In this document: positions 13,331 through 55,268 of the stretch, piece after piece
Position numbering within the stretch: the first letter of the stretch is position 1
Layout: every line of letters begins with the position of its first letter
Assembly: GCA_038144595.1 (NCBI GenBank)
Contig: JAYQOB010000006.1
Location: forward strand, 68,013 to 132,012
Direction: 5' to 3'
DNA from: Candidatus Poseidoniales archaeon
Lineage (GTDB): Archaea; Thermoplasmatota; Poseidoniia; Poseidoniales; Poseidoniaceae
Length of the DNA stretch: 64,000 nt
Notes under the pieces: model-generated
Told to the model about the DNA's origin: nothing
Databases searched by the model: none
Seen by the model: the letters and a program-made list of their open reading frames with translations, nothing else
Position numbers and translations under genes: made by a program

Positions 13331-13352
13331 GACCGCACGATGGCGATGGTGG

Positions 13353-13358
13353 ATTAAA
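13353..13358 (-). promoter_or_regulatory. TATA-like element (TTTAAT) about 25 nt upstream of the malEF ATG; suggests a leaderless transcript
   Basis: The minus strand reads tgTTTAATcc. Spacing to ATG 13330 matches the archaeal TATA-to-TSS distance. No SD lies in between. Confidence 0.35.
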
Positions 13359-13430
13359 CACCTTAGGCGTCTCAATTTCCGTCCACGGCAAAGCCCATCA
13401 GCGGCAAAATGGCCTGCAGGTCTTTGACGT

Positions 13431-14051: not shown

Positions 14052-14169
14052 GTGATTCACCAGGGGACTCTTCGACCGTAGCAAGCTCACCAAGGAGAGG
14101 AGGCCCCGAAGGGCCTCGCTCTCCGAGGCGGTCGTCCGAGGACGACGTCGCTTCGACGTCCGTCAGGCC

Positions 14170-14736
14170 TCAAGCCTTCTTGTCGTAGCTCAGGTCATCC
14201 CAAGTTCGGAGCAAAGCACCGTCTCCATTGATTGGAGCATAGCTCAGGGTGATCGTCACATCTTCAAGCGGCGTACCGTCAGGTGCGTGGGTTCGAACAA
14301 AGATCGTGTCTCCGGAGTTGAAGGTCGAAACCGACCGGGTCTCCGTTTCTGAGATTTGTTCCTTGGTCACCGAGTCCACGAAGGACACGAAGGCGTCGCT
14401 GTTGGCGGGGTTGAACCCGTACACACCGGCGCTGTCAGCCAAGTTCACCGAGTAGGTGTTGAGGGCACCCGTGGCGTTGGTGTAGAACACCTTCACCTCG
14501 ACGGCTTGCGTAGCAAGGGGCGTCTGGGATTGCTCAACGGTGATGCGCCAGTGGCCTTCATCAGCATCGAATCCGTTGACGTCTTCGATGTCGAAGGTGA
14601 CACGGGGCACGCCCTTCACGTCGGTTTCAGCCAGGCTGGAAGCCCACACGTAGATGACACCGGACAGCACCACGGTGATAGCGACCATCAGGATGGTAGC
14701 GATCACAGGGCTGACGGCTGCGTCGTCTTCAGCCAT
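14170..14736 (-). other. Archaeal type IV pilin-like module (class III signal motif + DUF1628-type domain), in frame at the 3' end of the giant ORF; possible nested CDS from ATG 14736
   Basis: MAEDDAAVSPVIATILMVAITVVLSGVIYVWASSLAETDVKGVPRVTFDIEDVNGFDADEGHWRITVEQ... (188 aa). It is preceded by the TM anchor APSIVAVALTGLFVSALSFAS and then RRADDEEDVES. GAGGA lies 10 nt upstream of ATG 14736. Confidence 0.7.
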
Positions 14737-17700
14737 CGACTCGACGTCCTCTTCGTCGTCAGCACGGCGGCTGGCGAAGGAGAGGGCACTGACGAAGAGA
14801 CCCGTGAGGGCCACAGCGACAATGCTTGGGGCGAACGATGGAACGGCGCTGGCACCGATGGTTTCCACAACGTCTGGCAGGAACTGGTCCGTGGCCAGGA
14901 AGTTGCTGGCTGGCTGGTTGGCGTGGTTACACACGTCAGCCGTAGCAAGCGAGGTCATGATGTTGTTACACCAGTTGGTGTCCTCGAGGAGCGGTCGGCG
15001 CTCGGAGGTCTTCGTGGCGTTCTTACCGTATTGACCGGGCTTGGACCATGGGTCGTCGCTCTGCACGTTGTTGATGATAGCGTAGTGCGATCCGGGCTCG
15101 TCGGCCTGGAAGCGGTCTGCAGCGGTCACCGACATGTCGCAGGGGTTGGCCAGACAGGTCACAACGTCCATCTCAACCCACACGTGGGTCGTGTCCTTTG
15201 TGATGTAGACATCCTCGGTGTACTTGACGCTGGCACCGTAGTCGGGCACAGCGTAGTAGCGAGTCAACTCAACATCGTCGTGTCCATCCGTGTGGTAGGT
15301 GATGGCCAGCATGTGGTCGTATCGGTATGGACCTTCGTCGCCACCGCCGTTGACGGCGACGGTGACCGGCACGTAGGTACCGGTCATGACGTTGGTGACA
15401 CCGTTGAAGCTGAAGCCCACCTCGTCGTCGAAGAAGTAGTCAGGCACTTGCTCACGGACGTTCTCAACACGGACACCGATTTCCTTCGTAGCCACACCTT
15501 GCTGGTAGTCAGCGATGGCCATCACGCTTGGGTCGTAGTTTGGCACGTACGTGTTGTACTCGCCCTGCGTGGTTGGGGCCGTTGGTGTGTCTCGGAGGAC
15601 CAAGCGGATCTGACAGTACTCAGAGCCGGATGGGCCAATCTGGTGGATACCGTTGTTGTTGAGGTAGTCGATCTCCCAGTCGTTGGCGTTGGTCGTAGCG
15701 TCCTCGATGAGGTCGAACACGAGGTCATCACCGACGATGGTCGTGGTGAAGTAGTTCGTGTAGACACACTGGTCCGTGGACTCAACCGTCCAGGTCAGGT
15801 CGTCGAGGTCGTGGTCAACGTCTGCCTTGATAGCGGACAGGTCGTAGGTCAAGTTCGCCACGTTCTCGTCATCTTCCATCAAGGAGATGGACCATGGGAG
15901 AGCGGGGATCGAACCGTTGTCAGCCACCATGACGGTGTCGGTCGTGCGGTTCCAGTCCTTGATGACCGGAGCGTCGTTGACAGGTGCAACCGAGAAAACC
16001 ACGTCGAAGGTGGTTGCATCTTGGTTTTCTGCGCCATCGTCAGCGAGACCGAGCGTGACCGTACACTTGCCACCCAACTCGTTGTTGGTGTTCTCGGTGA
16101 TGGCCAGCTCGTTGTTGAGGATGTCAACATCGAAGGCGGAACAGGCATCGCTGGTGCCGAAGTCAACAGCGCTGGCGGACCAGGTGTAGACTTGGCGGGT
16201 CGGTGCTTGCTCGTTGGCCATGTCACGGATGTAGGAACGGGTAGCGTTCGACACATCACCCAGGAACTTGGTGTGGGTACCGAAGCCTTCTGGGAGGATG
16301 TTGTAGTTGCCGTCGTCTTCGGAGAAGATCGGCATACAGTCGGAGCGCTCGACGTTACAGATGACAGGAGCGTCGTTGATGTTGTTCACCGTGAAGGTGA
16401 TGTTGTGGGTGTCGCTCAAGCCGTTGCTGTCCGTGACCTCGAAGGAGAACACTTGCGTACCGAATTGATCAACTCTGGGCGTGAAGGTCACGTCCTGACC
16501 GTTGAGCACGGCGTCCATGAGGTCGTCGTTGTTGAAGGCCACTTGGGTGCCCTCGGTCATGGTCCAGCTCAGCGAGGATTCCTCGTCCTGCACGTCATCA
16601 GCCAGGTTGGTCAGGCTGAAGGTGAAGGCGCCGGAGTCTTCGTCCTTGTCGAAGTCAACGAGTCCGTCGTCGGTGTTGGTTCCTTCCGTGTCGATCACTG
16701 GACAGGCACGCTTGATGTCAATCGTGCTCTGGACGTCGGTCGTGTCGCCGGTTCCAGCCACGTAGCTGTCGTCGAAGACGACGTTGGTGGCCATTGAGAT
16801 GTCCTCAACGACGGCCCAGTCGTAGGCACAAGCAGCTGGCGTCTTGATCATCAGGTCGTAGTTCTTCTGACCGGTGGCCGTGGTGCTGCCCTTGTAGGAC
16901 TGGTAGACCAGGACCTCAGAGGTCAAGGTTCCGTCAGCAAGGTCACCGTGGGTCAACTCGACGGTCATGAACTTGGACAGGCTCTGCAGGGTAGCAGAGG
17001 AGTTCAAGGTCTGACTTGGGTGAGCGATCGTGATGTCAGCCGTGGTTTCCTCTTGGACGATGGCCACGATGTCGATCTCGGATGGCATACCACCGATGCG
17101 GCTCCATGGGACACCGAACTCAGCGAGCGAAGTGGAGAAGTCCACGTCGATGTTGGCCGTGCTCAGGCTGGATGGACTCCAGCCGAGGAAGCCGTAGCTG
17201 TAGAGGTCGTAGGAACCTTCGCTGTCAGCCCACAACACGTAGTTTGCGTTGAACGGCAGTTCGTGTGCACCACCGAGGCCGTTGTAGCCGACATCGGAAC
17301 CACCGCTACCGGTGTTGAGGTAAATCAACACGTCCGAGTTGGACAGGTCGCTGTTGGTCATACCGAAGTAGATACCGTCGCCTTCGATGTAGGTCACCAG
17401 GAAGTCGTCGGTGCCGTCGCCGCTCATTACACCGGGCATAGCGTAGCCGGATGGGTTGAGGGCGTTGCCGCCGTTCCAGTCCTCGTCCGAGCCGTCCACC
17501 GTCATGGCTTCGGGTTGGAAGGAGGTCGAAACGTAGGAAGCACGCTCGTCGTCCGTGGAGGTCAGCAAGAGAGCGACCTCAGCAGCAGGAGCAGCACCCA
17601 AGTGGGTGGAGTCGATGCTCATGAGGTTGGCTTCGTCGATGACGGCCGAGCTGGCCACGACGATCTTGCTGCTGTCGAGGGTGTTGCCAATCGAGGTGAT

Positions 17701-20700
17701 GTGAGCGTTGTTGCCAGCGTTCACCTGCGTGGTGGCGTCAGCCCAGGACATGTTCTCAACACTGCCGGTGGCGTCCACAACGGACAGGGCCGTGGTGGCG
17801 TCAGCGACACCGCCGTCCCAGCGGAACGGCGTGTCTTCAACATACATACCGATGGCACCCGAGGCGTCCATGGGGTAGACCCAGACGTCAGGGCTGCTCT
17901 CGACGTGGAGACCGGTACCGGTGGCACCACCGTCGACGTGAGCGTCGATGGCCACCACGTAGGTGTCCTCAGCGAACACACCGTAGTCGTTTCCAGCGAT
18001 GTAGGCGCCGCCAATCATGAACAGGTCGCCGTTCTCCTTGCTGACACCGGTGGCGTAGCCGCTCACGTCCGTACCGTTGAGGGTCAGGATCGTGTTGGTG
18101 TCGTCGCCGACGATACCGACGGTCGAGGAGAGGTCATCACCGGTCAAGGTGGAACCAACGTCGCTGAAGTCGCAGTCATCGAGAACGATGGCGTTGTCGC
18201 CAAGGTTGATCGTGTTGGCTGCGGACTGGATGGCCACAGAGTCACAGCTCGAAGCGGTGATACCAACGGCGTTCGGGGAGGTTCGTCCCGTCGACAAGCC
18301 GATGGTGTTGCCACTCACGGTTGGACCGGCGTAGCTGCCCGTAGCGCCAGAGGATTCAACCACACTGATGGTGGCTCCACCGTCGCCCCACGAGTCGGCC
18401 ACAGCAAGCGTGTAGTTGCCAGCGTCCGTGTAAGCACGGAGTGGGCTGTACGCAGCGTTGCTGTTGAACGAGTAGGTGGGCCAGGTGTCCTTGGTACCGT
18501 CGGGCTTGGTGATCTCAATGCTGATTTCGTAGCCCCAGCTGTCGGTTTCGAGGTTGACCACAGCGGTCTTGCCGGAGGCAAGGTTCCAGGTACAGCTGGT
18601 CGAGCGTCGGTAGTCGCTGCTGCCAATCGAACAAAGCGAGTTGGTCGGTGCAGGCGGTGCGCCCATGCTGTCAAGGTACATACCACCGTCAGCATCCGTC
18701 AGGGTGTTGTCGGTGATGTTGCCGTAGCCGTCGAAGATGTAGATACCCGTCGAGGTGTCGTCGCTGATACCGCCGATGTCGTTGCCGTCAATCGTGAAGT
18801 CATCCACACGGTTGAGGTAGAAGGCATCGTCGCCGCCAACGACCGTGTTGTCCTGAATCAGGACGTCCTCGGTCTTCCCGTTGTAGATGGCCACTGCGTG
18901 TCCGTTGGACGGGTTGAACTCGTTGTCGGTGATGGTCACGTGCTGTGCTTCGTTCGTGGTGTCGAGCCAAACATCTGCGATTTCACCGCCGTCGTTGAAG
19001 ACGTTGTTGGTGACCGTCAGGTTGTCAACACCGATCTCGTTGGTGTTGTGGCTGTAGTAGTAGGGCGAGCGCTCAGCAAAGACACCAACACCACAGTCAA
19101 CGAAGTTGTTGCTGTCGATGATGTTGCCGTCACCGCCGTTCATGATGATACAGATGTCATTCAGGTTGATGGCGTTGTTCAATGCAGAGTAGCCGTCGTA
19201 GTGGACGAAGGTGCTGTTGGTGATCTTGAAGAAGTCCAACTCGTAGTTGTTGTAGTAGCCGTAGCCCATGGCACCGATGACCGAGGCAACACCGGAAATG
19301 GTGGTGTTGTCCATGTCGATATTGAGCGAGTAGTAGCGGTAGCCGAGGACGAAGCCCTGTGGAGCGCCACTGCTGGACACAGCCACGGTGGTGACCGTAG
19401 CATCGTGCATGTAGAGCGAGGATTCGCCGCTGTAGTACGGGTACATACGGTTGGCGCCGTCGAAGTCGTAGGAAGCGGTGGAGATCCACGTGGAACCGTT
19501 CCAGTTGTGCTTGCCTGAGGCGAGGTACATGAACGGAGCGTCCATCATGACGGTCTCGCCAGCCAAGTCGTTGCCGCTGTGGCTTCGGAGGTAGCCGTAT
19601 TCCACCAGACCGTTGCTGTACGTTCGGCTTCCCGAGGAAGAGAGGCCGCTGGCGCAGCGCTCTTGCTTCACGTAGGAGGTCGAGGTGTAGCAGATACGGG
19701 CGGTGTACTCGTCTTCGAGGTAGACCGTGTCGCTGTTGCCCGAGGCGTCCGTGAGGGACATGGTCTCGAACACGTAGCGGAAGTCAGCTGCGTTGTTGCT
19801 GCTGCCGGACCAGTAGTAGTCAATGGTGGCCGAGGCCACCACTTCGTAGCCGTTCAGGTTGGCCGTACAGACGTTGGCACACGAACCGCTGTCCACCGTT
19901 TGGGTGATGAACGTCAGGTCGTTGGCCACACCGTTCGAATCGGTGTTAACCATACCGGTGACCGTTCCGTCAGCGTCCTTCAGAATGACCGTGGTGCCGG
20001 TCACGTCCTCGGCGGTGCCGGAGACGTTCGCCTGGAGGGTCACATCGAGTTGTCGCAGTCGGTCGAAGATACCGGTTCCGGTGACTTCCACCGTGTTGGT
20101 GTCGATCGTACCTTCGATGAACTCCATGGTGGCGGAACCGGTGATGAGGACATCCTTGGTGTTGGACATGACAACATCGGTCAGCGTGAATGCACCGCTT
20201 CCGTCGGTTTCGATACCAACGGCGTTGTTCTGAATGGTCATACCGCTGAACTCAACGTCGGCCGAAGTACGAGAGGCGTACTTGAAGGCCGCACCGGTTG
20301 AACCGGTGACAGTACCGGAAAGGTCGCCACCGACATCGGTCTGGTAGTAGACACCAGCCACGGCTTGGTTCTCAAGGTCGAGGTTGAGGAGGTCCATTTG
20401 ACCAGAGGCTGTGCTTGACACAAGGACACCGTAGTTGCCGCTCGAGACGTTCAAACGGTCTGCGGAGGCAGAAGTTTGACCGACGATTTCCAAACCGGAT
20501 TGGCTTGCTCCAACGACATCAATGTCCTCAAAGTGGCCAGCAGCAAACGCACCGCCGATTTCGATACCGGTGGTGGCGCCCGTGATGGAGCCTTCCTTGA
20601 AGAGTGGCGTACCAGACTCGCGGAGGTAGGTTCCCAAGTCGCTTGGGTCGTTGCCGGAACGAGCCACGAAGTCGTAGCGGTCCTGGTAGTTGTCAGATCC

Positions 20701-23700
20701 TCGGTGAAGGACATCCATCCAAAGGTAGACCTTGGAGATGTTTCCGCCGTTGGCGACAGCGCCAGAGATGTCCACGATGGGGTAGGTCAGGCGAGCGCCC
20801 TCTCCGCTGTTCATGTAGTAGGTGTAAGCGTAGTCAAGACAGATACCGTAGTTGTTGGGGTAGCCACCGGCAGCGTAGCTTGGTGGGTTACCAACGTTTC
20901 CAGGCTGACCTGGGCCGGTGGAGGGTTGACCGTTGCTACCTTCGGGTGGAGCGTAGGCACCGCCGAAGTAGAAGGACGGGGAGTAGTAGCCCCAGTACTT
21001 GTACGGGTAGCGGGACTGGTAGTTGCCCGTTGGACTGAAGTCGGTGGACTCCCAGCCGAAGCCGAATTCATCAGGTGCTTCGTAGTAGTCAGGATAACTC
21101 ACGGACTGACCGAGCCAGTAGCGGTAGAGGTAGTAGAAGTAGCCCTCCCAAGACTGGTAGTTTGGACCGTAGCTGTAGCCGTAGTAGTTACAGTGCCAGG
21201 ATGGTGCACCACCGGTACCGCCGTTGTAGGAGTGGGTACCTGCGGTGACCGCTGGGTCGTTGCTACCGTAGGGGTAGTAACCCTCTTGGCCGTTGTCGGT
21301 GATGTTCCACTCGTTGCCAGCATCGTCCTCGAACATGATGTTCATTCGGTCGGTGATGAAGTAGTACTTGCTCGTAGCGTAGTTGTAGCTTGGGTGAGCG
21401 TTTCCACCGGCAAAGACCGAGTTGGCACCAACCTGCAGGTAGTCGCCCGTGCCCAAGTAGGTGGACAGGTCGATCTTGTAGGTGGTCCAGCCGGCCGTAG
21501 CGCCAGAGAGGGACGTACTTCGGTAGATGGTTGGCAGCGACATACCGCCGTAGGCGTTGATACCGACGGTGTTGCCCGTGGAGGTGAAGCCGTCCACTTG
21601 AGGAGCACCGTTGTAGCTCTGGATACCGACGGCTGCGTTCTTGACGATGATGTCAGTGAGCGTTGCACCGGAGTTCTCGATCCAAATCGCCGTACCGGTC
21701 TGACCGGTGTTGATGATGCTGGAGGCCTGGATGTTCGCAGAGCCGCCTTGGATCTTGACCGTAGCCATCTCGTCAGCGTTCGCAGAGGCACCGTAGATGT
21801 TCGCGGAGTCCATCATGTTCAACGTTGCGCCGTTGCCGATGTAGAGCGCCGACTCGGTGGTCGTGTCCCAAGCAACGTCTCGGAGGTTGGCGTGGTCGAG
21901 CGTCAGCGTACCGCCATTCTGGATGTCCAAGTGGAGGCCGTAGGTCGAAGAGACCGCACGGATGGCCGCAGGGTTTCCGGAGGTACCATCGTTGTTGGCG
22001 GTCAAGAAACCGCTGTCCTTGATGGTGATGACTGGCGAAGAGGTCGCCGTGCTCTGAACACGCAGCGAACCGCCCTGCAACTCGAAACCACAGGAGTCGA
22101 GCATCAAGTCGGCCGAGACCGTGATGGACGTGTCGTCAAAGGTGAACGTGTTCGTACCGCTGTCGAAGTTTCCACGGAGGTCGTATCCGCCGCTGGAGCT
22201 GGACTGGCCGGTGTAGAACGGGTCGTTGATCAACTTGTAACAGTCGAGCGTTGGGTCGTTGAACACGATGGGCGCTGGCTCCAAGAGGAGGTCCAGGTGC
22301 GTGCCCCACGTGTAGCCGTTGCTGGGGTACCAGGAACTGGCCAGGGTGACATCGGGGTAGTCATCGGGGTAGGTCTCGTTCTGACCGGCCGTACCGAAGG
22401 CTCGGACGACGTGGTCTTCGTAGGCCGTACCGTCGCTGTCTTCCACGACAACCCAAACGCTGGTGTTGCCGTTCACGTCGGTCATGTGGCTGCCGACCTG
22501 GAACAACTCGTTCATGCTGCTGTCGAGGAGCGTGGCCGTGACCACGTGGTCTTGCTTGTACACCTTGGCGGTCGGCGTCTGTCGGTAGACGGAGACGTTG
22601 GCCAGTCCACCGAAGTAGACCAACGACGGGTTGCTGCTGGACGAGGAGACGTCGTAGGCACAGTTGCCCGTGTCGCCGTTCGAGTCCGAACAGTCGTTGC
22701 CGTTGAGGTCAACGTCGATGAGCACAACATCGGTGCCGGTTCGAGCCTTGGCGACTTCCGTCGTGCCCGAGCTGATGCTCGAACTGGTGATGGTCGACTC
22801 ACCCACGGTGATGCGGGAGTTTCGGCCGTCGATGACGTGGTCGGAACTGGAACCGTGTGCAAAGTCAGCGTCTCCGATCGAAATCGTGTTCTTCGCAGAG
22901 GAACTGGAACAGGTGCTCTTGAACGATTCAAGGCTCGGGGCATCCATGATCATGGACCAGCCACAGCCAGCCAGCGTGAAGGCATCGATGTCAAAGTTCG
23001 CCATGTCAACGGTTTCGGAGACGATGGAAGAACCGCTCATCGAGATATCGCCAGCGGTGATGTCCGTGAAGGTACCCGGGTGGATGCGCTGCATCGTGAT
23101 GTCGCCAGCGGTGATGGTGTCAAAGACAGCGTCGCTGCTGGATGGACCGTTGCCGGTCTGGGACCAGCCACCTGGGATGAGCCACAAGTCAGCCGTGCCG
23201 AGGTCAACGTCCATCATGGCGATGCTGCCCATGGCGTTGATACCGGAGTTGGCGTAGCTGTCCACGTCCACGTTGTTGAGGTACACGTTGGAACCCGTGC
23301 CGTACATCGAGTCAATGGCCACACCGGTCTGAGCCGATGGGTTGGTGACGGTCACGTTCGAGACGGTGACGTGCTGCAAGTCAACATCGATGAAGTTCAC
23401 GTAGGAGTTCTCGACGGTCAAGTTCTCAGCGTGCAGAGCACCGGCGGTGGAACCTGGGTAGTTGACGATGGTACCGGCCCACGACTTACCGTCGGTGTTA
23501 CAGTTCTTGATCGTCCCTTCCTTCAGGGTGGCCACGGTGTTCTCTGGGAAGTTGAAACAGGCCTCATCGACGCCGTCAATTTCGAAGTCTTCCATGGTGA
23601 GGACCGTACCTTGGCCGCTGCCGTGTGTGAACACAGCACCGACGTTGGTGAAGGTCACGTCGCTCATCGTGTAGTTTCCGGTGTTACAGTCTGCGGTTGA

Positions 23701-26700
23701 ACTACCACAGGACGGTCCGGAGCTGTCGTGGCGGCTACCGGAGCGGAACACAGCGTCCGACGTATTCATGAAGTTCACGTGGCTAAACTGATGTCGGTCA
23801 TCGGTACCACCTGCGGAGGTACAGTCGTCCGTGAAGGCCATACCCTTCCATTCGCCACCGTTCAAGCCGGTGATGTTGATGGGGTGGGTTTCGTTGGCCA
23901 GGGCCGTCATCTTGGTACAGGCGCCGTCGAAGGAGATTCCCTTGCCAGCGGCCACGTAGATCTGCACACCGGGCTTGATGGTCAAGTCCGAAGAGACCAC
24001 GAGGTAGTCGTTGGTCGGGTTGATGCGGATTGGGCTGTCGGTCAAGTCCCACACTGGGTCGGAGGTGATGTCAGCCGTAACATCCGTACCCTTGCCTTCG
24101 TATGGCATGACACGGTAGTAGACGGAACAGTCCTGGTTGGAGTTCACGTAGCAGTAGTATTGGTTGTATCCGGTCCAGAACGGAGCGATGGTACATGGGT
24201 GAGCCAAGCTGCTTCCCGAGTAGGGAAGGGATGGCTGGTGGTAGGTCCAGAGGCTGCGCTCAACGTTCGTGTTGCCGTTGCTGATGAAGTACATCGAGCC
24301 TTGTCGGCTGAGTTGGATACGGTCGTTGGAGTCGTCACCGTCGTAGGTCGTACCGAAGTATTCGAATTCGAAGCCTGCTGGGATGTCAATGTTCGCGTTG
24401 CAGCGAGCCTTGTACGTGTTCCAGTAGTAGGACGAGATACAGTAGTAGAGGTAGGGGCGACCGTTGGAGGTGCCGGTCAACGCCGTGTCAGCGTTGGTGA
24501 CTTCCACCAGACCCTTGTCGAAGGACTCCCATGCGTGGGAGGACGAGCTGGTCGAGATACGGAAGTTGGACGTGGTTGGCACGTGACCGGGGTTGGTGTT
24601 GAAACTCGTCGAGGAGGAATGCGCAATGCTGGCACCCTTCTGGCGGGTTTGGTCCATGTAGCCGATCGACCAGGAGTTGTAGGTGGTACGGCAGTTGCTG
24701 TCGTACTTGTACTCAATCTCGTTGGTCACGTCGTAGAACAAGGCCTGAACGGTACAGAGTTGACCGTAGGTGTAGTACGACATGTCTCGCCACTCAACGA
24801 CGAACACCTTGTTCGGGTCGCCTCGCTCAAAGGAGTAGGTCGACGAGGTGTTGCTGTTGATGCCGGAGGAAACGGTCGAAACGTCTCGGCTGGAGAAGTA
24901 GTACTCCACCGTGTCGTTCACTTCGAGGTCCTCGATGGCAGCGCTCCACGTACAGGCGGCGAGTTGACACTCGGTACGGGTCTTGCCGGATTCTTGGGAC
25001 ATGGCCGTCGAAACCCAGCTGCCAGCCGAGCCACCGTCGGGGGTGATTCGGTGGTAGAGGGTTGGTCCGACACCAGCAGAGCTGCTCACGTTGAGACCTG
25101 CGGCTGGGTCACCAGCATCGAGGATGGTGACCGAAACCGTTCGGCTCTTGGAGTGAGAGTCCTGCATGGGGCTGTGGATCATCTCTGGCTTGAACGTGTC
25201 AGGCGTAGGTGCGACGTTGCCGACCTTGTAGGTGATGTCGCCGGTGCTGGCTTGGCGACCGTAGTAGCCAGTGCCAAGGGCGAACCCGCTCCAGCGGTAG
25301 GAGGAGGTCGAACCGTACACCATGTAGTAAGCCGAGGTACAGCGGTCGTAGGAGGTTGCTCGGTAGAAGTAGTACCATCCGTTCGTGGTGACACACAAAC
25401 GGTTGGCCGTCGTCGAACTGGCGGTTGCGTTGAACGAGAACGTACCGAAGGAACCGGTGATGTCGCCGGGGATGGCGAACTTGTAGGCTTGCGAGAAACC
25501 GTAGGACACCGAGGCCGTGGCTTGGCTGCCGCCGGTCAACGGGGTGTCAATGCCGGTTTCGGTGTCAACACCGACGGTGGCCCACTTGTTCAGCTGGCTG
25601 TTGTACACGAAGATGATGTTCATGCCTGGGCCGTCCTTGGCAGCGATCTGCAGGAAGCCGTCGCCGTTGTTGTTCCAGAGGTTCTGGTTGAACTTGTTGG
25701 AACCGCTGTTCATGCCGTAGTAGCCGGTGGCGGGTGCGGTGCTTCCACGGGCGAGCCAGTTACCGTAGAAGGTGCTGGTGCCGGTGTAGAAACAGGACTG
25801 CGAACCCGTGCCACAGTTCGAGGTGTCGAACTCAAAGAAGTACTCATCGGAGTGGCTGTAGTAAGTCAGTTGGCGGTCCATGAAGCCCTGAGGCGTGTAG
25901 TAGCTGCCTGCGTGGACGTCCGTGGTCAACACGGTCATCTTCTTGTGCGAGGTTGGTGCGTTGGCTGGGTCAACGATGTCAACCTGGTAAGGCGTAGGCG
26001 TGGTTTGCGTACCGGTCAAGGCAGGCTCGTAGCCGACGTTGGCGCCGTTGCTGCCCTGGTTCAAGTCTTGGAACTTCCAGTAGTACTGGAAATCGTCGCC
26101 GTAGGACAGGTCGTCCACACGGGCCTTGAAGCGGCAGTCGGTGGCGGTGCTGGAACAGGTGCCAATGGACACGAGTTCACCAGCGTCGAACTGGTTGTTG
26201 GAGCCCAGTCCGTAGGTGGTGGTGCTCCAGGAGGATCCACCGTCGGTGGAGTAGTAGAGCACAGGTGCACCGCTGGACGTCGTGTCGATACCCGACATGT
26301 CGGTCAGCTTGATGAAGAGCGTTCGCTCACCTTCGATGTACGAATCAATTCCCGTGTAGGGGACAAAGTCCGAGGTTGGGGCATCGGCGTCCGTACCACC
26401 AGAGTAGGTGATGAGGAGGTGAGAGTTGCGGCTGCCAGAGGCGTAGGCGTACGTGTAGAAGTACGCACTGCCACCGGTGTAGTGCTCACCAACACCGACC
26501 GTGCCCGAGTTGCTCAGGGCGTTGGTGATGATGGAGACACCACCGGAGGTGGCGCCACAAGCGGTGGCGGAGTTACAGAGCGTAACGGTCTTCCAACCGG
26601 TACCGCTGCTGCTGACCGTGGCTGCGGATGGCGAGCGACCAATCGAGGCTTTGAGGCTTCGAGAGGCGGTACCACCGTAGTTTGAGGTCAGGTAGGAACC

Positions 26701-27999
26701 GCTGATGGAGGAACCGGAACACGAACTGGAGCCGAAGCTGTAGGAGTAGCGTGGAGCGAGACCACAGGACTCCAAGACCTTGACCTGGAAGGTGCGGGTC
26801 TGGCCGTAGGCGTAGTTCATGTATTTCTTCCACTCAATCTTGTCAACGGTTGCACCGCTGGGCAGAGCGCTGGAGGAAGAGAAGGTGTACTTGTGCCATG
26901 GCACATAGTAGTAGGAACCGTAGTATCTGTAGTGGTAGCGGTAGGAGCTGCTGTAGCAGTAAGCGTAGTAGATGTAACAGTAGCCACCTGCAGCGGAGTT
27001 CACACGAATGGACGGGTCAATGGCAACCGGGTAAACACGGTCTTCATCGAGGAGCCAGTCGGACTCAACCACGGTGATGAGGAGGATTTCAGGGCCGTAG
27101 ACCTGAACGAAGAAGGTTCCCATGTGGGGCTCGTCTGCACCTGCTTCCACGATCATGGGCGCAGGGATCTCCGCGAGGAGTTCACCGGTTTCGATGTGTC
27201 GGATTTGAAGGTCTTCTTGCGTCTTGAAGAGTTCTTCACCGAGCATCGTTTCACCAGAGAAGAGTGCGTAGCCAGCAGGCATGCGCAGTCCTTCGCTGAG
27301 ACCGAAGTACTCAGCAGCGTCTGGAATCACCGGAGCCTCACGGAGGATGAGGTTCTGCTTGACCTGGTTGCTCTCGACGGAGTAGTCCAGGTCAAAGCCT
27401 TCAGCAAGCGGGTAGCGGATGACGTTGCCACCAACTTCCACGCCGTTCGGGCTTGGAGGAGCGATGAAGGGCTCGGGAGCCGAGCCGGAGACATCGAGGG
27501 TCACGAGCATGGGGTTGATACCGGAGATCACCGGGTCAACGAACTCGTTTGCCTGAACCGAGATGCCGTTGGCGACTTCAGGGGCGAAGTAGGTCGTGAA
27601 GGTGTTCTCCGTCACGCCCCAGCCCTCTGGGTAGGCCTGAATGTTCAGGTCAATGTCTTCCCAAGTGCCATCGGCAGACATGTAGTGGACAGGTTCACTG
27701 GCCACCATCTGCGTGATGGAGCCGTCCTCATTGAGGAAGGCCTTGGTCTTGGCGTCTCGCATCCCTTGAAGTTCAAGCGATGGGTCGTATTCATATTCTG
27801 CTTCGGCAAGCTTCTCGGGGAGAGCAAAGTAATCCTCTGCTCCAGTCGAGTCTGCTTCCACAGACTCCACGGTTGCTGCTGTTTCGTTGTTGTCAACGTA
27901 GCCGCTCATTGGCATGAGCACCATCAATGCGCACAACAACAGTGCAACCCCGATACCGCCGAAGACGGTCTTCTTCTGGTTATTCTTGTTTCCCAACAT
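14170..27999 (-). CDS. Giant (4,609 aa) cell-surface adhesin-like protein: signal/anchor, Tyr-rich segment, right-handed beta-helix (PbH1-like) repeats, cadherin/VCBS-like NDAPV domains, TM anchor, C-terminal pilin module
   Basis: Single uninterrupted 13.8-kb ORF. ATG 27999 is preceded by GGGGTGA (SD) 7 nt upstream. N-terminus KKTVFGGIGVALLLCALMVLMPMSG. Beta-helix repeats include NNVFNDGGEIADVWLDT...ITDNEFNPSNGHAVAIYNG...IQDNTVVGGDDAFYL. Cadherin-like ends: TFTVNNINDAPV and VVFSVAPVNDAPV. Confidence 0.85.
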   Translation of the reverse strand: MLGNKNNQKKTVFGGIGVALLLCALMVLMPMSGYVDNNETAATVESVEADSTGAEDYFALPEKLAEAEYEYDPSLELQGMRDAKTKAFLNEDGSITQMVASEPVHYMSADGTWEDIDLNIQAYPEGWGVTENTFTTYFAPEVANGISVQANEFVDPVISGINPMLVTLDVSGSAPEPFIAPPSPNGVEVGGNVIRYPLAEGFDLDYSVESNQVKQNLILREAPVIPDAAEYFGLSEGLRMPAGYALFSGETMLGEELFKTQEDLQIRHIETGELLAEIPAPMIVEAGADEPHMGTFFVQVYGPEILLITVVESDWLLDEDRVYPVAIDPSIRVNSAAGGYCYIYYAYCYSSSYRYHYRYYGSYYYVPWHKYTFSSSSALPSGATVDKIEWKKYMNYAYGQTRTFQVKVLESCGLAPRYSYSFGSSSCSGSSISGSYLTSNYGGTASRSLKASIGRSPSAATVSSSGTGWKTVTLCNSATACGATSGGVSIITNALSNSGTVGVGEHYTGGSAYFYTYAYASGSRNSHLLITYSGGTDADAPTSDFVPYTGIDSYIEGERTLFIKLTDMSGIDTTSSGAPVLYYSTDGGSSWSTTTYGLGSNNQFDAGELVSIGTCSSTATDCRFKARVDDLSYGDDFQYYWKFQDLNQGSNGANVGYEPALTGTQTTPTPYQVDIVDPANAPTSHKKMTVLTTDVHAGSYYTPQGFMDRQLTYYSHSDEYFFEFDTSNCGTGSQSCFYTGTSTFYGNWLARGSTAPATGYYGMNSGSNKFNQNLWNNNGDGFLQIAAKDGPGMNIIFVYNSQLNKWATVGVDTETGIDTPLTGGSQATASVSYGFSQAYKFAIPGDITGSFGTFSFNATASSTTANRLCVTTNGWYYFYRATSYDRCTSAYYMVYGSTSSYRWSGFALGTGYYGRQASTGDITYKVGNVAPTPDTFKPEMIHSPMQDSHSKSRTVSVTILDAGDPAAGLNVSSSAGVGPTLYHRITPDGGSAGSWVSTAMSQESGKTRTECQLAACTWSAAIEDLEVNDTVEYYFSSRDVSTVSSGINSNTSSTYSFERGDPNKVFVVEWRDMSYYTYGQLCTVQALFYDVTNEIEYKYDSNCRTTYNSWSIGYMDQTRQKGASIAHSSSTSFNTNPGHVPTTSNFRISTSSSSHAWESFDKGLVEVTNADTALTGTSNGRPYLYYCISSYYWNTYKARCNANIDIPAGFEFEYFGTTYDGDDSNDRIQLSRQGSMYFISNGNTNVERSLWTYHQPSLPYSGSSLAHPCTIAPFWTGYNQYYCYVNSNQDCSVYYRVMPYEGKGTDVTADITSDPVWDLTDSPIRINPTNDYLVVSSDLTIKPGVQIYVAAGKGISFDGACTKMTALANETHPINITGLNGGEWKGMAFTDDCTSAGGTDDRHQFSHVNFMNTSDAVFRSGSRHDSSGPSCGSSTADCNTGNYTMSDVTFTNVGAVFTHGSGQGTVLTMEDFEIDGVDEACFNFPENTVATLKEGTIKNCNTDGKSWAGTIVNYPGSTAGALHAENLTVENSYVNFIDVDLQHVTVSNVTVTNPSAQTGVAIDSMYGTGSNVYLNNVDVDSYANSGINAMGSIAMMDVDLGTADLWLIPGGWSQTGNGPSSSDAVFDTITAGDITMQRIHPGTFTDITAGDISMSGSSIVSETVDMANFDIDAFTLAGCGWSMIMDAPSLESFKSTCSSSSAKNTISIGDADFAHGSSSDHVIDGRNSRITVGESTITSSSISSGTTEVAKARTGTDVVLIDVDLNGNDCSDSNGDTGNCAYDVSSSSSNPSLVYFGGLANVSVYRQTPTAKVYKQDHVVTATLLDSSMNELFQVGSHMTDVNGNTSVWVVVEDSDGTAYEDHVVRAFGTAGQNETYPDDYPDVTLASSWYPSNGYTWGTHLDLLLEPAPIVFNDPTLDCYKLINDPFYTGQSSSSGGYDLRGNFDSGTNTFTFDDTSITVSADLMLDSCGFELQGGSLRVQSTATSSPVITIKDSGFLTANNDGTSGNPAAIRAVSSTYGLHLDIQNGGTLTLDHANLRDVAWDTTTESALYIGNGATLNMMDSANIYGASANADEMATVKIQGGSANIQASSIINTGQTGTAIWIENSGATLTDIIVKNAAVGIQSYNGAPQVDGFTSTGNTVGINAYGGMSLPTIYRSTSLSGATAGWTTYKIDLSTYLGTGDYLQVGANSVFAGGNAHPSYNYATSKYYFITDRMNIMFEDDAGNEWNITDNGQEGYYPYGSNDPAVTAGTHSYNGGTGGAPSWHCNYYGYSYGPNYQSWEGYFYYLYRYWLGQSVSYPDYYEAPDEFGFGWESTDFSPTGNYQSRYPYKYWGYYSPSFYFGGAYAPPEGSNGQPSTGPGQPGNVGNPPSYAAGGYPNNYGICLDYAYTYYMNSGEGARLTYPIVDISGAVANGGNISKVYLWMDVLHRGSDNYQDRYDFVARSGNDPSDLGTYLRESGTPLFKEGSITGATTGIEIGGAFAAGHFEDIDVVGASQSGLEIVGQTSASADRLNVSSGNYGVLVSSTASGQMDLLNLDLENQAVAGVYYQTDVGGDLSGTVTGSTGAAFKYASRTSADVEFSGMTIQNNAVGIETDGSGAFTLTDVVMSNTKDVLITGSATMEFIEGTIDTNTVEVTGTGIFDRLRQLDVTLQANVSGTAEDVTGTTVILKDADGTVTGMVNTDSNGVANDLTFITQTVDSGSCANVCTANLNGYEVVASATIDYYWSGSSNNAADFRYVFETMSLTDASGNSDTVYLEDEYTARICYTSTSYVKQERCASGLSSSGSRTYSNGLVEYGYLRSHSGNDLAGETVMMDAPFMYLASGKHNWNGSTWISTASYDFDGANRMYPYYSGESSLYMHDATVTTVAVSSSGAPQGFVLGYRYYSLNIDMDNTTISGVASVIGAMGYGYYNNYELDFFKITNSTFVHYDGYSALNNAINLNDICIIMNGGDGNIIDSNNFVDCGVGVFAERSPYYYSHNTNEIGVDNLTVTNNVFNDGGEIADVWLDTTNEAQHVTITDNEFNPSNGHAVAIYNGKTEDVLIQDNTVVGGDDAFYLNRVDDFTIDGNDIGGISDDTSTGIYIFDGYGNITDNTLTDADGGMYLDSMGAPPAPTNSLCSIGSSDYRRSTSCTWNLASGKTAVVNLETDSWGYEISIEITKPDGTKDTWPTYSFNSNAAYSPLRAYTDAGNYTLAVADSWGDGGATISVVESSGATGSYAGPTVSGNTIGLSTGRTSPNAVGITASSCDSVAIQSAANTINLGDNAIVLDDCDFSDVGSTLTGDDLSSTVGIVGDDTNTILTLNGTDVSGYATGVSKENGDLFMIGGAYIAGNDYGVFAEDTYVVAIDAHVDGGATGTGLHVESSPDVWVYPMDASGAIGMYVEDTPFRWDGGVADATTALSVVDATGSVENMSWADATTQVNAGNNAHITSIGNTLDSSKIVVASSAVIDEANLMSIDSTHLGAAPAAEVALLLTSTDDERASYVSTSFQPEAMTVDGSDEDWNGGNALNPSGYAMPGVMSGDGTDDFLVTYIEGDGIYFGMTNSDLSNSDVLIYLNTGSGGSDVGYNGLGGAHELPFNANYVLWADSEGSYDLYSYGFLGWSPSSLSTANIDVDFSTSLAEFGVPWSRIGGMPSEIDIVAIVQEETTADITIAHPSQTLNSSATLQSLSKFMTVELTHGDLADGTLTSEVLVYQSYKGSTTATGQKNYDLMIKTPAACAYDWAVVEDISMATNVVFDDSYVAGTGDTTDVQSTIDIKRACPVIDTEGTNTDDGLVDFDKDEDSGAFTFSLTNLADDVQDEESSLSWTMTEGTQVAFNNDDLMDAVLNGQDVTFTPRVDQFGTQVFSFEVTDSNGLSDTHNITFTVNNINDAPVICNVERSDCMPIFSEDDGNYNILPEGFGTHTKFLGDVSNATRSYIRDMANEQAPTRQVYTWSASAVDFGTSDACSAFDVDILNNELAITENTNNELGGKCTVTLGLADDGAENQDATTFDVVFSVAPVNDAPVIKDWNRTTDTVMVADNGSIPALPWSISLMEDDENVANLTYDLSAIKADVDHDLDDLTWTVESTDQCVYTNYFTTTIVGDDLVFDLIEDATTNANDWEIDYLNNNGIHQIGPSGSEYCQIRLVLRDTPTAPTTQGEYNTYVPNYDPSVMAIADYQQGVATKEIGVRVENVREQVPDYFFDDEVGFSFNGVTNVMTGTYVPVTVAVNGGGDEGPYRYDHMLAITYHTDGHDDVELTRYYAVPDYGASVKYTEDVYITKDTTHVWVEMDVVTCLANPCDMSVTAADRFQADEPGSHYAIINNVQSDDPWSKPGQYGKNATKTSERRPLLEDTNWCNNIMTSLATADVCNHANQPASNFLATDQFLPDVVETIGASAVPSFAPSIVAVALTGLFVSALSFASRRADDEEDVESMAEDDAAVSPVIATILMVAITVVLSGVIYVWASSLAETDVKGVPRVTFDIEDVNGFDADEGHWRITVEQSQTPLATQAVEVKVFYTNATGALNTYSVNLADSAGVYGFNPANSDAFVSFVDSVTKEQISETETRSVSTFNSGDTIFVRTHAPDGTPLEDVTITLSYAPINGDGALLRTWDDLSYDKKA

Positions 28000-52307: not shown

Positions 52308-52319
52308 GTCTCATCATCC

Positions 52320-54035: not shown

Positions 54036-54048
54036 GATATCCTCCTCC

Positions 54049-55264: not shown

Positions 55265-55268
55265 TCCA

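What the first reader, a model, noticed from the sequence alone, without database searches (positions are those of the whole stretch)
14170..14865. A complete archaeal type IV pilin module is encoded in frame at the C-terminus of the 4,609-aa adhesin
Seen: the last 188 codons of ORF 14170..27999 read MAEDDAAVSPVIATILMVAITVVLSGVIYVWASSLAETDVKGVPRVTFDIEDVNGFDADEGHWRITVEQ.... VSPVI + ILMVAITVVL is the hallmark class III signal/N-terminal helix of archaeal pilin-like (DUF1628-type) proteins. It is followed by a beta-rich domain of normal pilin size. That motif normally sits at the extreme N-terminus of a small protein. Here it follows 4,421 residues and sits directly behind a hydrophobic anchor (APSIVAVALTGLFVSALSFAS), an RR stop-transfer and an acidic loop (RRADDEEDVESMAEDDAA), with no stop codon. 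The topology is self-consistent: ectodomain out, TM in, short cytoplasmic loop, pilin helix back out. This places the A/VSPVI site on the cytoplasmic face, where FlaK/PibD-type prepilin peptidases cut. Inference, three options: (a) a polyprotein in which the prepilin peptidase separates a membrane-anchored giant adhesin from a pilin, i.e. a 4.4-kaa leader; (b) a nested pilin gene translated from internal ATG 14736, which has GAGGA 10 nt upstream; (c) a recent fusion by stop-codon loss. The pre-cleavage region is acidic rather than the usual basic. I am not aware of a described pilin precursor of this architecture.
Basis: partly seen in the sequence, partly recalled or inferred. Interest (0 to 1): 0.85.

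Follow-up and report, generated by a model that had tools for sequence, protein, structure and literature searches.

The report
Pilin cassette ending a giant protein
In the ocean's most abundant surface-water archaea (Marine Group II), one conserved 4,600-residue surface-protein gene ends, in frame, with a membrane anchor followed by a complete type IV pilin precursor; this layout is not described in the literature I could search, and it probably means a prepilin peptidase cuts one protein into a giant surface protein and a pilin.

Summary
ORF 14170..27999 (-) encodes 4,609 aa ending in PSFAPS, an 18-aa TM helix, RR, an 18-aa acidic loop, A|VSPVIATILMVAITVVLSGVIYVWA and a ~155-aa beta domain.

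- **Pilin identity.** The tail passes the curated cut-offs of PF07790 and TIGR02537. It models as a helix-plus-beta-sandwich "lollipop" whose best PDB matches are archaeal filament subunits.
- **Origin and age.** The window is Poseidonia (Marine Group II). In 82/82 genomes or contigs the frame runs through the junction, so the fusion is ancient. "Recent stop-codon loss" and assembly error are refuted.
- **Database "free pilins".** All three checked entries matching the tail are truncated gene calls or a scaffold gap.
- **Selection.** The pilin helix is 98.9% identical across species while third codon positions are 52% identical. Ala -1 is invariant. TM1 is only 63% identical.
- **Leader.** Free pilins have the same [DE][DE]xA|VSPVI site, so the acidic leader is normal.
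- **Internal start.** Unlikely: 14/82 loops have no start codon, 80/82 lack a TATA-like element, and GAGGA comes from Glu/Asp codons.
- **Portability.** A second, unrelated family of large proteins carries the same cassette; a free, nearly identical pilin gene follows a contig-truncated copy of that family's pilin.

Best reading (about 0.55): an internal class III signal peptide is cut at A4428|V4429. Main rival (about 0.3): an uncleaved two-helix anchor. "Adhesin" is unproven.

The parts
14170..27999 (-). Giant ORF, 4,609 aa plus stop. It is one conserved orthologous gene of Poseidoniales.
   Evidence: ORF. P0121 is 90% identical over the full length, P0129 is 44% identical over 4,602 aa, and P0132/P0135 are 30-34% identical over nearly the full length; only Pilin_N passes a Pfam cut-off.
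27895..27999 (-). N-terminal Sec-type signal peptide or signal anchor: MLGNKNNQKKTVFGGIGVALLLCALMVLMPMSGYV.
   Evidence: Read from the sequence. The same N-terminus is conserved in P0121, P0128, P0129 and P0134. Export is inferred, not tested.
15109..15462 (-). Membrane-proximal Ig-like ectodomain (residues 4180-4297). It always travels with the C-terminal beta domain.
   Evidence: it is 35-42% identical to small Sec-exported proteins P0148/P0149, which have this domain and the beta domain but lack both helices; beta sandwich with pLDDT 84-88.
14824..14841 (-). PSFAPS motif at the outer end of TM1 (residues 4387-4392).
   Evidence: S, F, A and P are nearly invariant in A3. The motif is also present in the unrelated family B (TPSFAPS, SPSFAPG) and appears as PGF in P0135/P0136. 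In all fetched DNA the motif is found only together with the pilin cassette, 74/74.
14770..14823 (-). TM1, an 18-residue stop-transfer helix IVAVALTGLFVSALSFAS (residues 4393-4410).
   Evidence: The length is fixed at 18 in 81/81 tails. Mean amino-acid identity is only 63%. AF2 predicts a helix.
14716..14769 (-). Cytoplasmic loop RRADDEEDVESMAEDDAA (residues 4411-4428), read here as an internal class III leader. The predicted cut is after Ala4428 (codon 14716-14718), before Val4429 (14713-14715). It contains ATG 14734-14736.
   Evidence: loop length is 18-22 aa. Position -1 is Ala in 82/82, -3 is E/D in 80/82, -4 is D in 76/82. The -7 position is read by eye from the loops printed as hydrophobic (M/I/L/F) in the loops inspected; it was not tallied. 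Many loops end in ...TRRIVEDEMA, the same as the free-pilin leader MKRRIVNDEQA. AF2 gives pLDDT below 50 in the loop.
14641..14715 (-). Pilin alpha-1 helix / H-domain VSPVIATILMVAITVVLSGVIYVWA (residues 4429-4453).
   Evidence: family matches; three peptide variants across 80 species, 98.9% mean identity, encoded by 75 distinct DNA sequences with 52% identity at third codon positions.
14173..14640 (-). Globular beta-sandwich domain of the pilin module (residues 4454-4609). The stop codon is at 14170-14172.
   Evidence: pLDDT up to 95; best fold matches are archaeal filament subunits; conserved YGF, D and Y columns.
57375..58010 (-). Context: the archaellin gene of the same genome, with leader MVKNMKKEMKNENRDNVAA|IGIGAMIVFIA. 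It is a second predicted substrate of the class III signal peptidase, and it also lacks a charged -2 residue.
   Evidence: PF01917, 70 bits; sequence and start.
50505..55264 (-). Context: archaellum assembly genes FlaJ (50505-52307), FlaI (52320-54035), FlaH (54049-54786) and FlaG/F-like (54773-55264). These are the only type IV filament machinery in the window.
   Evidence: T2SSF, T2SSE, KaiC-type ATPase, Arch_flagellin.

Best explanation
The gene ends in a portable cassette of about 230 residues. In order it contains the PSFAPS motif, an 18-residue stop-transfer helix (TM1), RR, an 18-22 residue cytoplasmic loop, an invariant pilin helix and a beta-sandwich domain. The loop is a class III (prepilin-type) leader without its initiator Met.

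Proposed mechanism:
1. The ~4,350-residue ectodomain is exported through Sec.
2. TM1 stops transfer.
3. The pilin helix re-inserts with its N-terminus in the cytoplasm and carries the beta domain back outside.
4. The class III signal peptidase (PibD/FlaK type), which this organism needs anyway for its archaellin, cuts between Ala4428 and Val4429.
5. One ORF therefore yields, at 1:1, a giant TM-anchored surface protein with a short acidic cytoplasmic tail and a 181-residue mature pilin-like protein.

At this stoichiometry the pilin cannot be a bulk filament subunit. Most likely it acts as a minor or adaptor subunit. It would stay bound through its beta domain to the giant's membrane-proximal domain, and through its invariant helix it would dock into an assembly built from free pilins that have an almost identical helix.

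What is shown: the architecture, the homology, the fold, the conservation pattern, and the absence of a stop codon, promoter or conserved start codon. What is inferred: the topology, the cleavage, and (most speculative) the adaptor role.
For: **Bona fide pilin module.** Curated HMM cut-offs are passed. There is a PDB Pilin_N sequence hit. The fold is a lollipop whose best matches are archaeal filament subunits.

**Ancient and universal.**
- At least 539 stretches in GTDB species genomes encode a relative; that count can include free pilins with the same helix.
- The best 80 loci are Poseidoniales apart from two evidently mis-binned contigs.
- The frame is open through the junction in 82/82.
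- Apparent interruptions are frameshifts far upstream or a scaffold gap.
- Full-length representatives of 2,785-5,559 aa all carry the module at the extreme C-terminus.

**Selection pattern expected for a processed pilin.**
- The helix is 98.9% identical with 52% third-position identity, whereas the adjacent TM1 is 63% identical.
- In an otherwise variable loop, Ala -1 is 82/82 and the acidic -3/-4 residues are kept.
- A G/A/S residue at -1 is the universal requirement for prepilin peptidases (PMC4371748).

**Same site as free pilins.**
- P0154 (Poseidoniaceae) reads MKNEMKNDEA|VSPVIATILMVAITVVLAGVLYVWA.
- P0239 reads MKRRIVNDEQA|VSPVI.
- H. volcanii PilA1-6 read DA|VS or RA|VS.

**Family B.** These are unrelated glycine-rich large proteins of 800-2,400 aa that carry the same cassette with a basic loop (KRRKKGYRRDREA|VSPVIAIIL). 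In L090 a free pilin gene with its own AT-rich upstream region follows a contig-truncated copy of the family B pilin whose mature part is nearly identical.

**The organism's own archaellin** also has uncharged -1/-2 residues.

**Disordered loop.** AF2 gives pLDDT below 50 between the two helices.
Against: - No direct evidence of cleavage exists: no proteomics and no N-terminomics.
- The charged -2 residue reported as critical for archaeal prepilin peptidases is absent in the window (Ala). It is uncharged in 80 of 82 tails, with one Arg and one His.
- No class III signal peptidase gene and no pilus-type ATPase/platform pair lie in the window. Only the archaellum genes are present, 22 kb away.
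- An internal class III signal peptide has no precedent that I could find.
- Small paralogues (P0146-P0149) join the membrane-proximal domain directly to the beta domain without either helix. In family B the beta domain also occurs behind lipoprotein-type signals. The beta domain can therefore work without being a filament subunit.
- Making a 4,428-residue "leader" for each pilin is costly.
Confidence: 0.55

Rival explanations
1. Uncleaved helical-hairpin anchor. TM1 and the pilin-derived helix stay joined and form a permanent two-pass membrane anchor. The beta domain packs against the membrane-proximal ectodomain as part of the stalk. The pilin helix is kept for oligomerisation or for docking to the archaellum/pilus platform, or, as in Haloferax, because membrane-resident pilin H-domains regulate motility.
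For: - Hairpin-less paralogues join the same two ectodomains covalently.
- Lipobox-anchored versions of the family B beta domain exist.
- The -2 residue is uncharged in 80/82 tails, which breaks the FlaFind rule.
- The 1:1 stoichiometry suits an anchor better than a filament subunit.
- The beta-domain pLDDT rises from about 85 to 89-95 when it is modelled together with the upstream domain. This is weak evidence.
Against: - A plain anchor does not explain why Ala -1 and the acidic -3/-4 residues are invariant in a loop that otherwise varies, or why the loop keeps a full class III leader (...RRIVEDEMA).
- Free pilins with the identical site exist in the same lineages. The peptidase would therefore meet the same motif in the same topology and would be expected to cut it.
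- The organism's archaellin also lacks a charged -2 residue.
Confidence: 0.3
2. Nested gene. The pilin is translated separately from an internal start codon in the loop (ATG 14736 in the window), from the long mRNA or from an internal transcript.
For: - 62/82 loops contain an in-frame ATG.
- GAGGA lies 10 nt upstream of ATG 14736 in the window.
- A metatranscriptomic TSS study reports a DUF1628 gene among the most active TSSs on MG-II contigs (PMC5069720). Which gene this is could not be resolved.
Against: - 14/82 loops have no ATG, GTG or TTG, and 6 more have only GTG or TTG.
- The Met positions differ between clades (-2, -7, -9, -11). Position -7 is read by eye from the loops printed as a conserved hydrophobic site (M/I/L/F).
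- There is no TATA-like or AT-rich element in the 150 nt upstream in 80/82, even in genomes of 41-45% GC, whereas the true 5' region of the giant gene is AT-rich.
- GAGGA is made by the GAA-GAG-GAC codons of the acidic loop.
- Every checked database "free pilin" of this type was a truncated call.
Confidence: 0.07
3. Double processing. PSFAPS/PGF plus TM1 plus RR is a sortase-type sorting signal (archaeosortase-like). It would be cut at the outer face so that the giant becomes lipid-anchored or released, while the peptidase frees the pilin at the inner face. This is compatible with the best explanation.
For: - The layout is tripartite: a Pro-containing motif, 18 hydrophobic residues, then Arg-Arg. 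The motif is conserved across unrelated families, and P0135/P0136 read PGF.
Against: - No sorting-signal model reaches its cut-off. PGF_CTERM scores 7.9 bits against 24.5 and Heimdall-CTERM 14.9 against 24, and these hits are for P0136 only. The window sequence gives nothing.
- The signal is not at the C-terminus.
- The motif was seen only together with the pilin cassette.
Confidence: 0.06
4. Artefact or recent accident: a sequencing or assembly error, or a recent loss of the stop codon, joined two ordinary genes.
For: Public records annotate 180-aa "type IV pilin" / "flagellin-like" proteins that match the tail.
Against: - The junction is in frame in 82/82 independent assemblies spanning 51-98% tail identity.
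- The annotated short proteins are truncated calls at contig ends or at a 10-N scaffold gap.
Confidence: 0.01

Closest known systems
Archaeal adhesion pilins of the Pilin_N/DUF1628 family (Haloferax volcanii PilA1-6; PF07790, TIGR02537)
   Same: Same family by HMM. The H-domain is nearly the same (VSPVI...LMVAITVVL). The predicted processing site is the same, [D/R]A|VS. There is a small beta-rich globular domain. As in the six Hfx. PilA proteins, the H-domain is almost invariant while the globular part varies.
   Different: The signal peptide is not N-terminal. It follows 4,428 residues that include a Sec signal, a giant ectodomain and a TM helix. The -2 residue is uncharged. No pilus ATPase/platform genes lie nearby.
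Modular type IV pilins (Streptococcus sanguinis PilB/PilC) and class III-signal substrate-binding proteins of the Sulfolobus bindosome
   Same: A pilin-type N-terminal helix is used to place a functional, non-pilin module on a type IV filament-like assembly (established knowledge; bindosome also).
   Different: In those proteins the extra module is C-terminal to the pilin helix and remains covalently attached after leader removal. Here the large module is N-terminal to the cleavage site and would be separated from the pilin by the cut.
C-terminal tripartite sorting signals (PGF-CTERM/archaeosortase A, PEP-CTERM, LPXTG)
   Same: A short Pro-containing motif, a TM helix and an Arg cluster near the end of a large secreted protein. 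Some relatives read PGF.
   Different: No model reaches its cut-off. The signal is not terminal, because about 200 further residues follow it, encoding a pilin.
Surface-protein precursors split into two associated chains (Clostridioides difficile SlpA cut by Cwp84; Staphylothermus tetrabrachion precursor)
   Same: One ORF, one cut, and two surface polypeptides made 1:1 that stay associated (my knowledge; functional analogy only).
   Different: The protease and the membrane side differ. Here the cut would be made on the cytoplasmic face by an intramembrane aspartyl peptidase at a class III signal.

Membership tests
Archaeal type IV pilin / class III signal peptide protein (PF07790, TIGR02537) | Match to the family model above the curated cut-off | tested here: met
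   PF07790 scores 36-41.5 bits against 25.2. TIGR02537 scores 37-40.4 bits against 20.
Archaeal type IV pilin / class III signal peptide protein (PF07790, TIGR02537) | G/A/S at -1, immediately before the hydrophobic H-domain | tested here: met
   Ala4428. Ala in 82/82 relatives. The requirement is stated in PMC4371748.
Archaeal type IV pilin / class III signal peptide protein (PF07790, TIGR02537) | Charged residue at -2 (FlaFind rule) | tested here: not met
   The window has Ala at -2, with Asp at -3 and -4. One of 82 tails has Arg and one has His at -2. Family B tails and free homologues do have D/E at -2. The window's archaellin also lacks a charged -2.
Archaeal type IV pilin / class III signal peptide protein (PF07790, TIGR02537) | Signal peptide located at the N-terminus of the precursor | tested here: not met
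   The site follows 4,428 residues. The frame is open upstream in 82/82.
Archaeal type IV pilin / class III signal peptide protein (PF07790, TIGR02537) | Lollipop fold: a long N-terminal helix plus a beta-rich head | tested here: met
   AF2 pLDDT 82.7, helix at residues 3-29 plus a beta sandwich. Top Foldseek hits are 8rh5, 8rey and 5z1l, with E 2e-4 to 8e-4 but TM-scores of only 0.28-0.37.
Archaeal type IV pilin / class III signal peptide protein (PF07790, TIGR02537) | Processing by PibD/FlaK/EppA | not testable with these tools
   No proteomic data are available. No A24 peptidase was found among the window ORFs scanned. Its presence in the genome is inferred from the archaellum operon.
Archaeal type IV pilin / class III signal peptide protein (PF07790, TIGR02537) | Assembly by a dedicated ATPase and platform protein into a filament | tested here: inconclusive
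   Only FlaI/FlaJ are present, at 50.5-54 kb. The free Poseidoniaceae pilin P0293 also sits away from any ATPase, next to glycosyltransferases.
PGF-CTERM or other sortase-type C-terminal sorting signal | Match to a sorting-signal model above its cut-off | tested here: not met
   The window's TM1 region gives no sorting-signal hit. For P0136, PGF_CTERM scores 7.9 against 24.5 and Heimdall-CTERM scores 14.9 against 24.
PGF-CTERM or other sortase-type C-terminal sorting signal | Signal at the extreme C-terminus | tested here: not met
   199 residues follow the RR.
Modular type IV pilin | Pilin module at the N-terminus with the extra module grafted C-terminally | tested here: not met
   The order is reversed: the large module precedes the leader.
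Giant Ig-repeat surface adhesin | Recognised adhesin or Ig-like repeat domains | tested here: inconclusive
   Big_9 scores 20.7 bits against 23.6 and PKD_3 scores 16.1 against 26.3. No DNA tandem repeats were found. The membrane-proximal domain models as an Ig-like sandwich.

The most novel reading that the evidence does not exclude
A class III (prepilin) signal peptide works internally. The archaeal prepilin peptidase would then act as a polyprotein-processing enzyme that splits a ~4,400-residue surface protein from a pilin made on the same chain. The released pilin would stay attached to the giant's stalk and would couple it to a type IV filament or bindosome-like assembly. The cassette PSFAPS-TM-leader-pilin would then be a portable C-terminal "pilin tag" for large secreted proteins. 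It would be used throughout Marine Group II and by at least one other lineage.
Probability: 0.4. Interest if true: 0.85.

Novelty: new variant of a known kind. Interest (0 to 1): 0.78.

Why it matters
Marine Group II archaea are the most abundant archaea in ocean surface waters. They are uncultured, and their cell surface is essentially unknown. Their attachment to particles has been discussed only in terms of the archaellum operon, thrombospondin-like proteins and flotillin (PMC6461757).

This finding identifies one conserved, syntenic giant surface-protein gene whose last 230 residues tie it to type IV pilin biology.

- **If the internal site is cut,** the known substrate range of prepilin peptidases extends from short N-terminal leaders to a 4,400-residue "leader". 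It would also show a new way to make a surface protein and its pilin partner in fixed 1:1 ratio.
- **If the site is not cut,** it is a new kind of membrane anchor derived from a pilin.

Either way the hypothesis is directly testable with a tagged tail construct in Haloferax with and without pibD, or by peptide searches in marine metaproteomes.

There is also a practical consequence. Current annotation splits or truncates these genes into 180-residue "type IV pilin" / "flagellin-like" entries, which hides the architecture and inflates pilin counts.

Tried and rejected
- **Database "stand-alone" pilins matching the tail.** I checked P0062, P0023 (two contigs) and P0067. All are truncated calls at contig ends or at a 10-N scaffold gap. 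P0107 lies in a frameshift-ridden long-read contig.
- **Apparent upstream stops in six loci.** These are frameshifts or ambiguous bases far upstream inside the giant gene, not at the junction.
- **Internal promoter.** The sigma-70/terminator scan found nothing useful. My own scan found no TATA-like element.
- **Tandem DNA repeats in the giant gene.** None were found.
- **Sequence search of the whole giant against PDB.** Only the pilin helix matched.
- **Sorting-signal HMMs for TM1.** Below cut-off.
- **Class III peptidase in the window.** Not found among 30 ORFs scanned.
- **Free Poseidoniaceae pilin as a full-length homologue of the tail.** Only the end of the leader and the helix align.
- **Foldseek of the 430-residue model.** It added nothing beyond generic Ig/FN3 hits and archaeal filament subunits.
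- **Literature.** Six full-text searches and seven papers gave no description of a C-terminal or internal pilin module.
- **The TSS table that might resolve the nested-gene option.** Table S5 of PMC5069720 is truncated in the held copy.
- **Taxon of family B.** It could not be determined.


Full report
**1. The observation.**

The minus-strand ORF 14170..27999 encodes 4,609 aa. Its tail reads ...ETIGASAVPSFAPS-IVAVALTGLFVSALSFAS-RRADDEEDVESMAEDDAA-VSPVIATILMVAITVVLSGVIYVWA-SSLAETDVKGVPRVTF...DKKA*.

The tail passes the curated cut-offs of both pilin N-terminal models:
- PF07790 scores 36-41.5 bits against 25.2.
- TIGR02537 scores 37-40 bits against 20.

It is also the only part of the 4,609 residues that matches any sequence in the PDB, a Pilin_N protein, 8fj5_A.

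An AlphaFold2 model of the putative mature part was built from 94 sequences and has pLDDT 82.7. It shows a helix at residues 3-29 followed by a beta sandwich. Its best PDB matches are the Oxiplasma archaellum, the Cuniculiplasma filament and methanogen and haloarchaeal archaellins. E-values are 2e-4 to 1e-3 and TM-scores are modest.

**2. Where it comes from and how old it is.**

A scan of one genome per GTDB species found at least 539 stretches that encode a relative. That count can include free pilins with the same helix. The best 80 loci are Poseidoniales (Marine Group II, mostly Poseidoniaceae), apart from two evidently mis-binned contigs. The window is 98% identical in the tail to Poseidonia MAGs.

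In all 82 genomes or contigs examined, the reading frame upstream of VSPVI is open. In most it is open through the whole 10-kb flank, more than 3,380 codons. The six loci with an upstream stop show abutting ORFs in another frame, or runs of ambiguous bases, far inside the giant gene. These are frameshifts, not a separation of the pilin.

A profile search of 1.84 billion representative proteins returned full-length proteins of 2,785 to 5,559 aa, all with the module at the extreme C-terminus. The giant is orthologous over its full length: 44% identity over 4,602 aa to P0129, and 30-34% to P0132 and P0135.

The short "type IV pilin" / "flagellin-like protein" entries that match the tail in public databases are gene-calling artefacts:
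- In three contigs the ORF runs open to the contig end.
- In one there is a 10-N scaffold gap inside VPSFAPS.

A recent stop-codon loss and an assembly error are therefore refuted.

**3. What is conserved.**

I compared 80 species:
- The 25-residue pilin helix has three peptide variants and 98.9% mean identity.
- It is encoded by 75 different DNA sequences with only 52% identity at third codon positions.
- The neighbouring TM1 has a fixed length of 18 residues but is only 63% identical.

The loop between the helices is 18-22 residues and variable, except at these positions:
- RR at its start.
- D at -4 in 76/82.
- E/D at -3 in 80/82.
- Ala at -1 in 82/82.

A hydrophobic residue (M/I/L/F) sits at -7 in the loops I inspected by eye in the output; this position was not tallied.

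A G/A/S residue at -1 is the one requirement shared by all prepilin peptidases (PMC4371748).

Free, canonical pilins returned by the same search have the same site and almost the same helix:
- MKNEMKNDEA|VSPVIATILMVAITVVLAGVLYVWA. The cluster of P0154 includes a protein annotated from a Poseidoniaceae MAG.
- MKRRIVNDEQA|VSPVIAVIL (P0239).

Many giant tails end their loop in ...TRRIVEDEMA|VSPVI, which is a complete class III leader lacking only its initiator Met. The H. volcanii PilA pilins are listed with DA|VS and RA|VS sites.

What is unusual is the uncharged -2 residue. However, the archaellin encoded in this same window (57375-58010) has the leader ...NRDNVAA|IGIGAMIVFIA, which also lacks a charged -2.

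**4. The nested-gene option.**

An in-frame ATG occurs in 62/82 loops. Its position differs between clades (-2, -7, -9, -11), and the -7 Met of the window occupies the hydrophobic position noted above. Fourteen loops have no ATG, GTG or TTG at all.

The 150 nt upstream of the helix contain no TATA-like or AT-rich element in 80/82 species. This holds even in genomes of 41-45% GC. The true 5' flank of the giant gene, in contrast, is AT-rich. The GAGGA upstream of ATG 14736 is produced by GAA-GAG-GAC, the codons of the acidic loop.

One lead stays open. A metatranscriptomic TSS study lists a DUF1628 gene among the most active TSSs on MG-II contigs (PMC5069720). The table needed to identify that gene is truncated in the held copy.

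**5. A portable cassette.**

A second family (P0200, P0214, P0219, P0244, P0250, P0254, P0257, P0298) consists of unrelated large secreted proteins. They are glycine-rich and 800-2,400 aa long, and their taxon is unknown. They end in the same layout...TPSFAPS-TM-KRRKKGYRRDREA|VSPVIAIILMVAITIVLAGVLWLWV-beta domain. Here the loop is basic and the -2 residue is charged. Such genes occur in tandem.

In L090 the contig begins inside a copy of this family's pilin (from within its helix), so whether that copy is fused to a large protein cannot be seen directly. After a 195-bp AT-rich spacer comes a free pilin gene with the leader MAERIANHHRYNMRKSAWRNDDA|VSPVI. The mature parts of the two copies are nearly identical. 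If the truncated copy is a fused tail, as its similarity to the P0200/P0219 tails suggests, this arrangement fits a major free pilin plus a pilin that is tied to a large protein.

The PSFAPS motif (PGF in P0135 and P0136) is shared across these families. In the DNA I fetched it occurs only together with the cassette, 74/74. It resembles the motif of sortase-type sorting signals, but no such model reaches its cut-off.

**6. Evidence that cuts the other way.**

Small Sec-exported Marine Group II proteins (P0146-P0149, also P0139 with thrombospondin-type repeats) contain the giant's membrane-proximal domain at 35-42% identity and the beta domain at 34-37% identity. These two domains are joined directly in those proteins. 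About 160 residues, including both helices, are replaced by a short acidic linker, and the proteins are anchored by a C-terminal TM helix.

In family B the beta domain also occurs behind lipoprotein-type signals. So the two extracellular domains form a unit, and the beta domain can function without being a filament subunit.

This finding fits both readings:
- It supports the inferred topology, with both domains outside the cell.
- It fits a cleaved pilin that stays bound to the stalk.
- It equally fits an uncleaved hairpin anchor.

A model of the last 430 residues shows the following:
- An Ig-like membrane-proximal domain.
- TM1 as a helix.
- A low-confidence loop.
- The pilin helix.
- A very confident beta domain, pLDDT 89-95.

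**7. Surroundings.**

- Downstream of the giant gene lie a HAD hydrolase and an alpha-glucan utilisation cluster: an ABC sugar transporter with a fused binding-protein/permease, a GH13 amylase, a phosphorylase and a GH77 enzyme.
- Upstream lie further surface proteins and a MacB/FtsX-type ABC system.
- At 50.5-58 kb there is an archaellum operon: FlaJ, FlaI, FlaH, FlaG/F-like and an archaellin.
- No A24 peptidase and no second ATPase/platform pair are in the window.
- The free Poseidoniaceae pilin sits elsewhere in the genome, next to glycosyltransferases.

**8. Verdict.**

The module is real, complete, ancient and under the kind of selection expected for a processed pilin. The most likely mechanism is an internal class III signal peptide cut at A4428|V4429, which would give a giant TM-anchored surface protein and a 181-residue pilin at 1:1 (confidence about 0.55). 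The adaptor or minor-pilin role is a further inference.

| Rival | Confidence |
|---|---|
| Uncleaved two-helix anchor | about 0.3 |
| Internal initiation | about 0.07 |
| Additional sortase-like cut at PSFAPS | about 0.06 |
| Artefact or recent fusion | refuted |

I found no description of this architecture in six literature searches and seven papers. These included the archaeal type IV pilus census (PMC4858521), a 2026 preprint on archaeal type IV filament systems, and the main Marine Group II genomics papers.

I rate it a new variant of a known kind. The parts are known (a class III signal, a Pilin_N pilin, a TM anchor), but their order and the implied processing are new.

Noticed in passing
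window 50505-58010 (-): Archaellum operon: FlaJ, FlaI, FlaH, FlaG/F-like, two unassigned ORFs and an archaellin. The archaellin leader, MVKNMKKEMKNENRDNVAA|IGIGAMIVFIA, has no charged residue at -2. This suggests the Poseidoniales class III peptidase differs in specificity from FlaK/PibD of model archaea.
   Followed up: partly
L001, L092, L093, L094 and database proteins P0003, P0023, P0062, P0067: Public records annotate the last ~180 codons of the giant gene as an independent "type IV pilin" or "flagellin-like protein". The giant ORF is cut by contig ends or scaffold gaps, so the architecture is hidden in current annotation.
   Followed up: yes
L008 (NZEQ01000026.1) and L079 (CAXQWT010000116.1): Contigs carrying this Poseidoniales gene (97% and 58% tail identity) are filed under a Verrucomicrobiales MAG and a Salipiger bermudensis MAG. 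These are probably binning contamination.
   Followed up: no
L090 1-1254; L085 10001-20127; L091 549-7655: A second family of large glycine-rich secreted proteins (taxon unknown, 48-52% GC) carries the same cassette, occurs in tandem, and in L090 a free, nearly identical pilin gene follows a contig-truncated copy of its pilin. The same beta domain also appears behind lipobox signals (P0301, P0303).
   Followed up: partly
proteins P0139, P0146-P0149 (not in the window): Small Marine Group II surface proteins keep the giant's membrane-proximal domain and the pilin beta domain but lack both helices. P0139 adds thrombospondin type-3-like Asp-rich repeats, which links the module to the "thrombospondin" adhesion genes discussed for MGII.
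   Followed up: partly
window 10709-13375 (-): An 888-aa ORF fuses an extracellular solute-binding domain (SBP_bac_1/8) to an ABC permease domain (BPD_transp_1). It lies within an alpha-glucan utilisation cluster (GH77, phosphorylase, GH13 amylase with a glycogen-binding module).
   Followed up: no
window 32630-37920 (-): A 1,530-aa MacB/FtsX-type permease, unusually long, with its ABC ATPase. A 1,046-aa surface protein with no Pfam match and a 292-aa putative lipoprotein lie between it and the giant gene.
   Followed up: no
window 58988-63985 (-): A 1,665-aa surface protein with CARDB/NPCBM_assoc Ig-like domains, a TM helix and a long acidic cytoplasmic tail. It lies directly upstream of the archaellum operon.
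   Followed up: no
window 14100-14169 (-): The 76-nt spacer after the giant's stop codon holds two perfect GC-rich hairpins, GACGTCG-AAG-CGACGTC and GAGGCCC-TTCG-GGGCCTC. Neither was flagged by the terminator scan, because no T run follows them.
   Followed up: no
PMC5069720 (Red Sea mdRNA-Seq): A DUF1628 gene (GI:663535065) has the seventh most abundant TSS on MG-II contigs. It is unknown whether this is the free pilin or a giant-gene tail, because the supplementary table is truncated in the held copy.
   Followed up: partly
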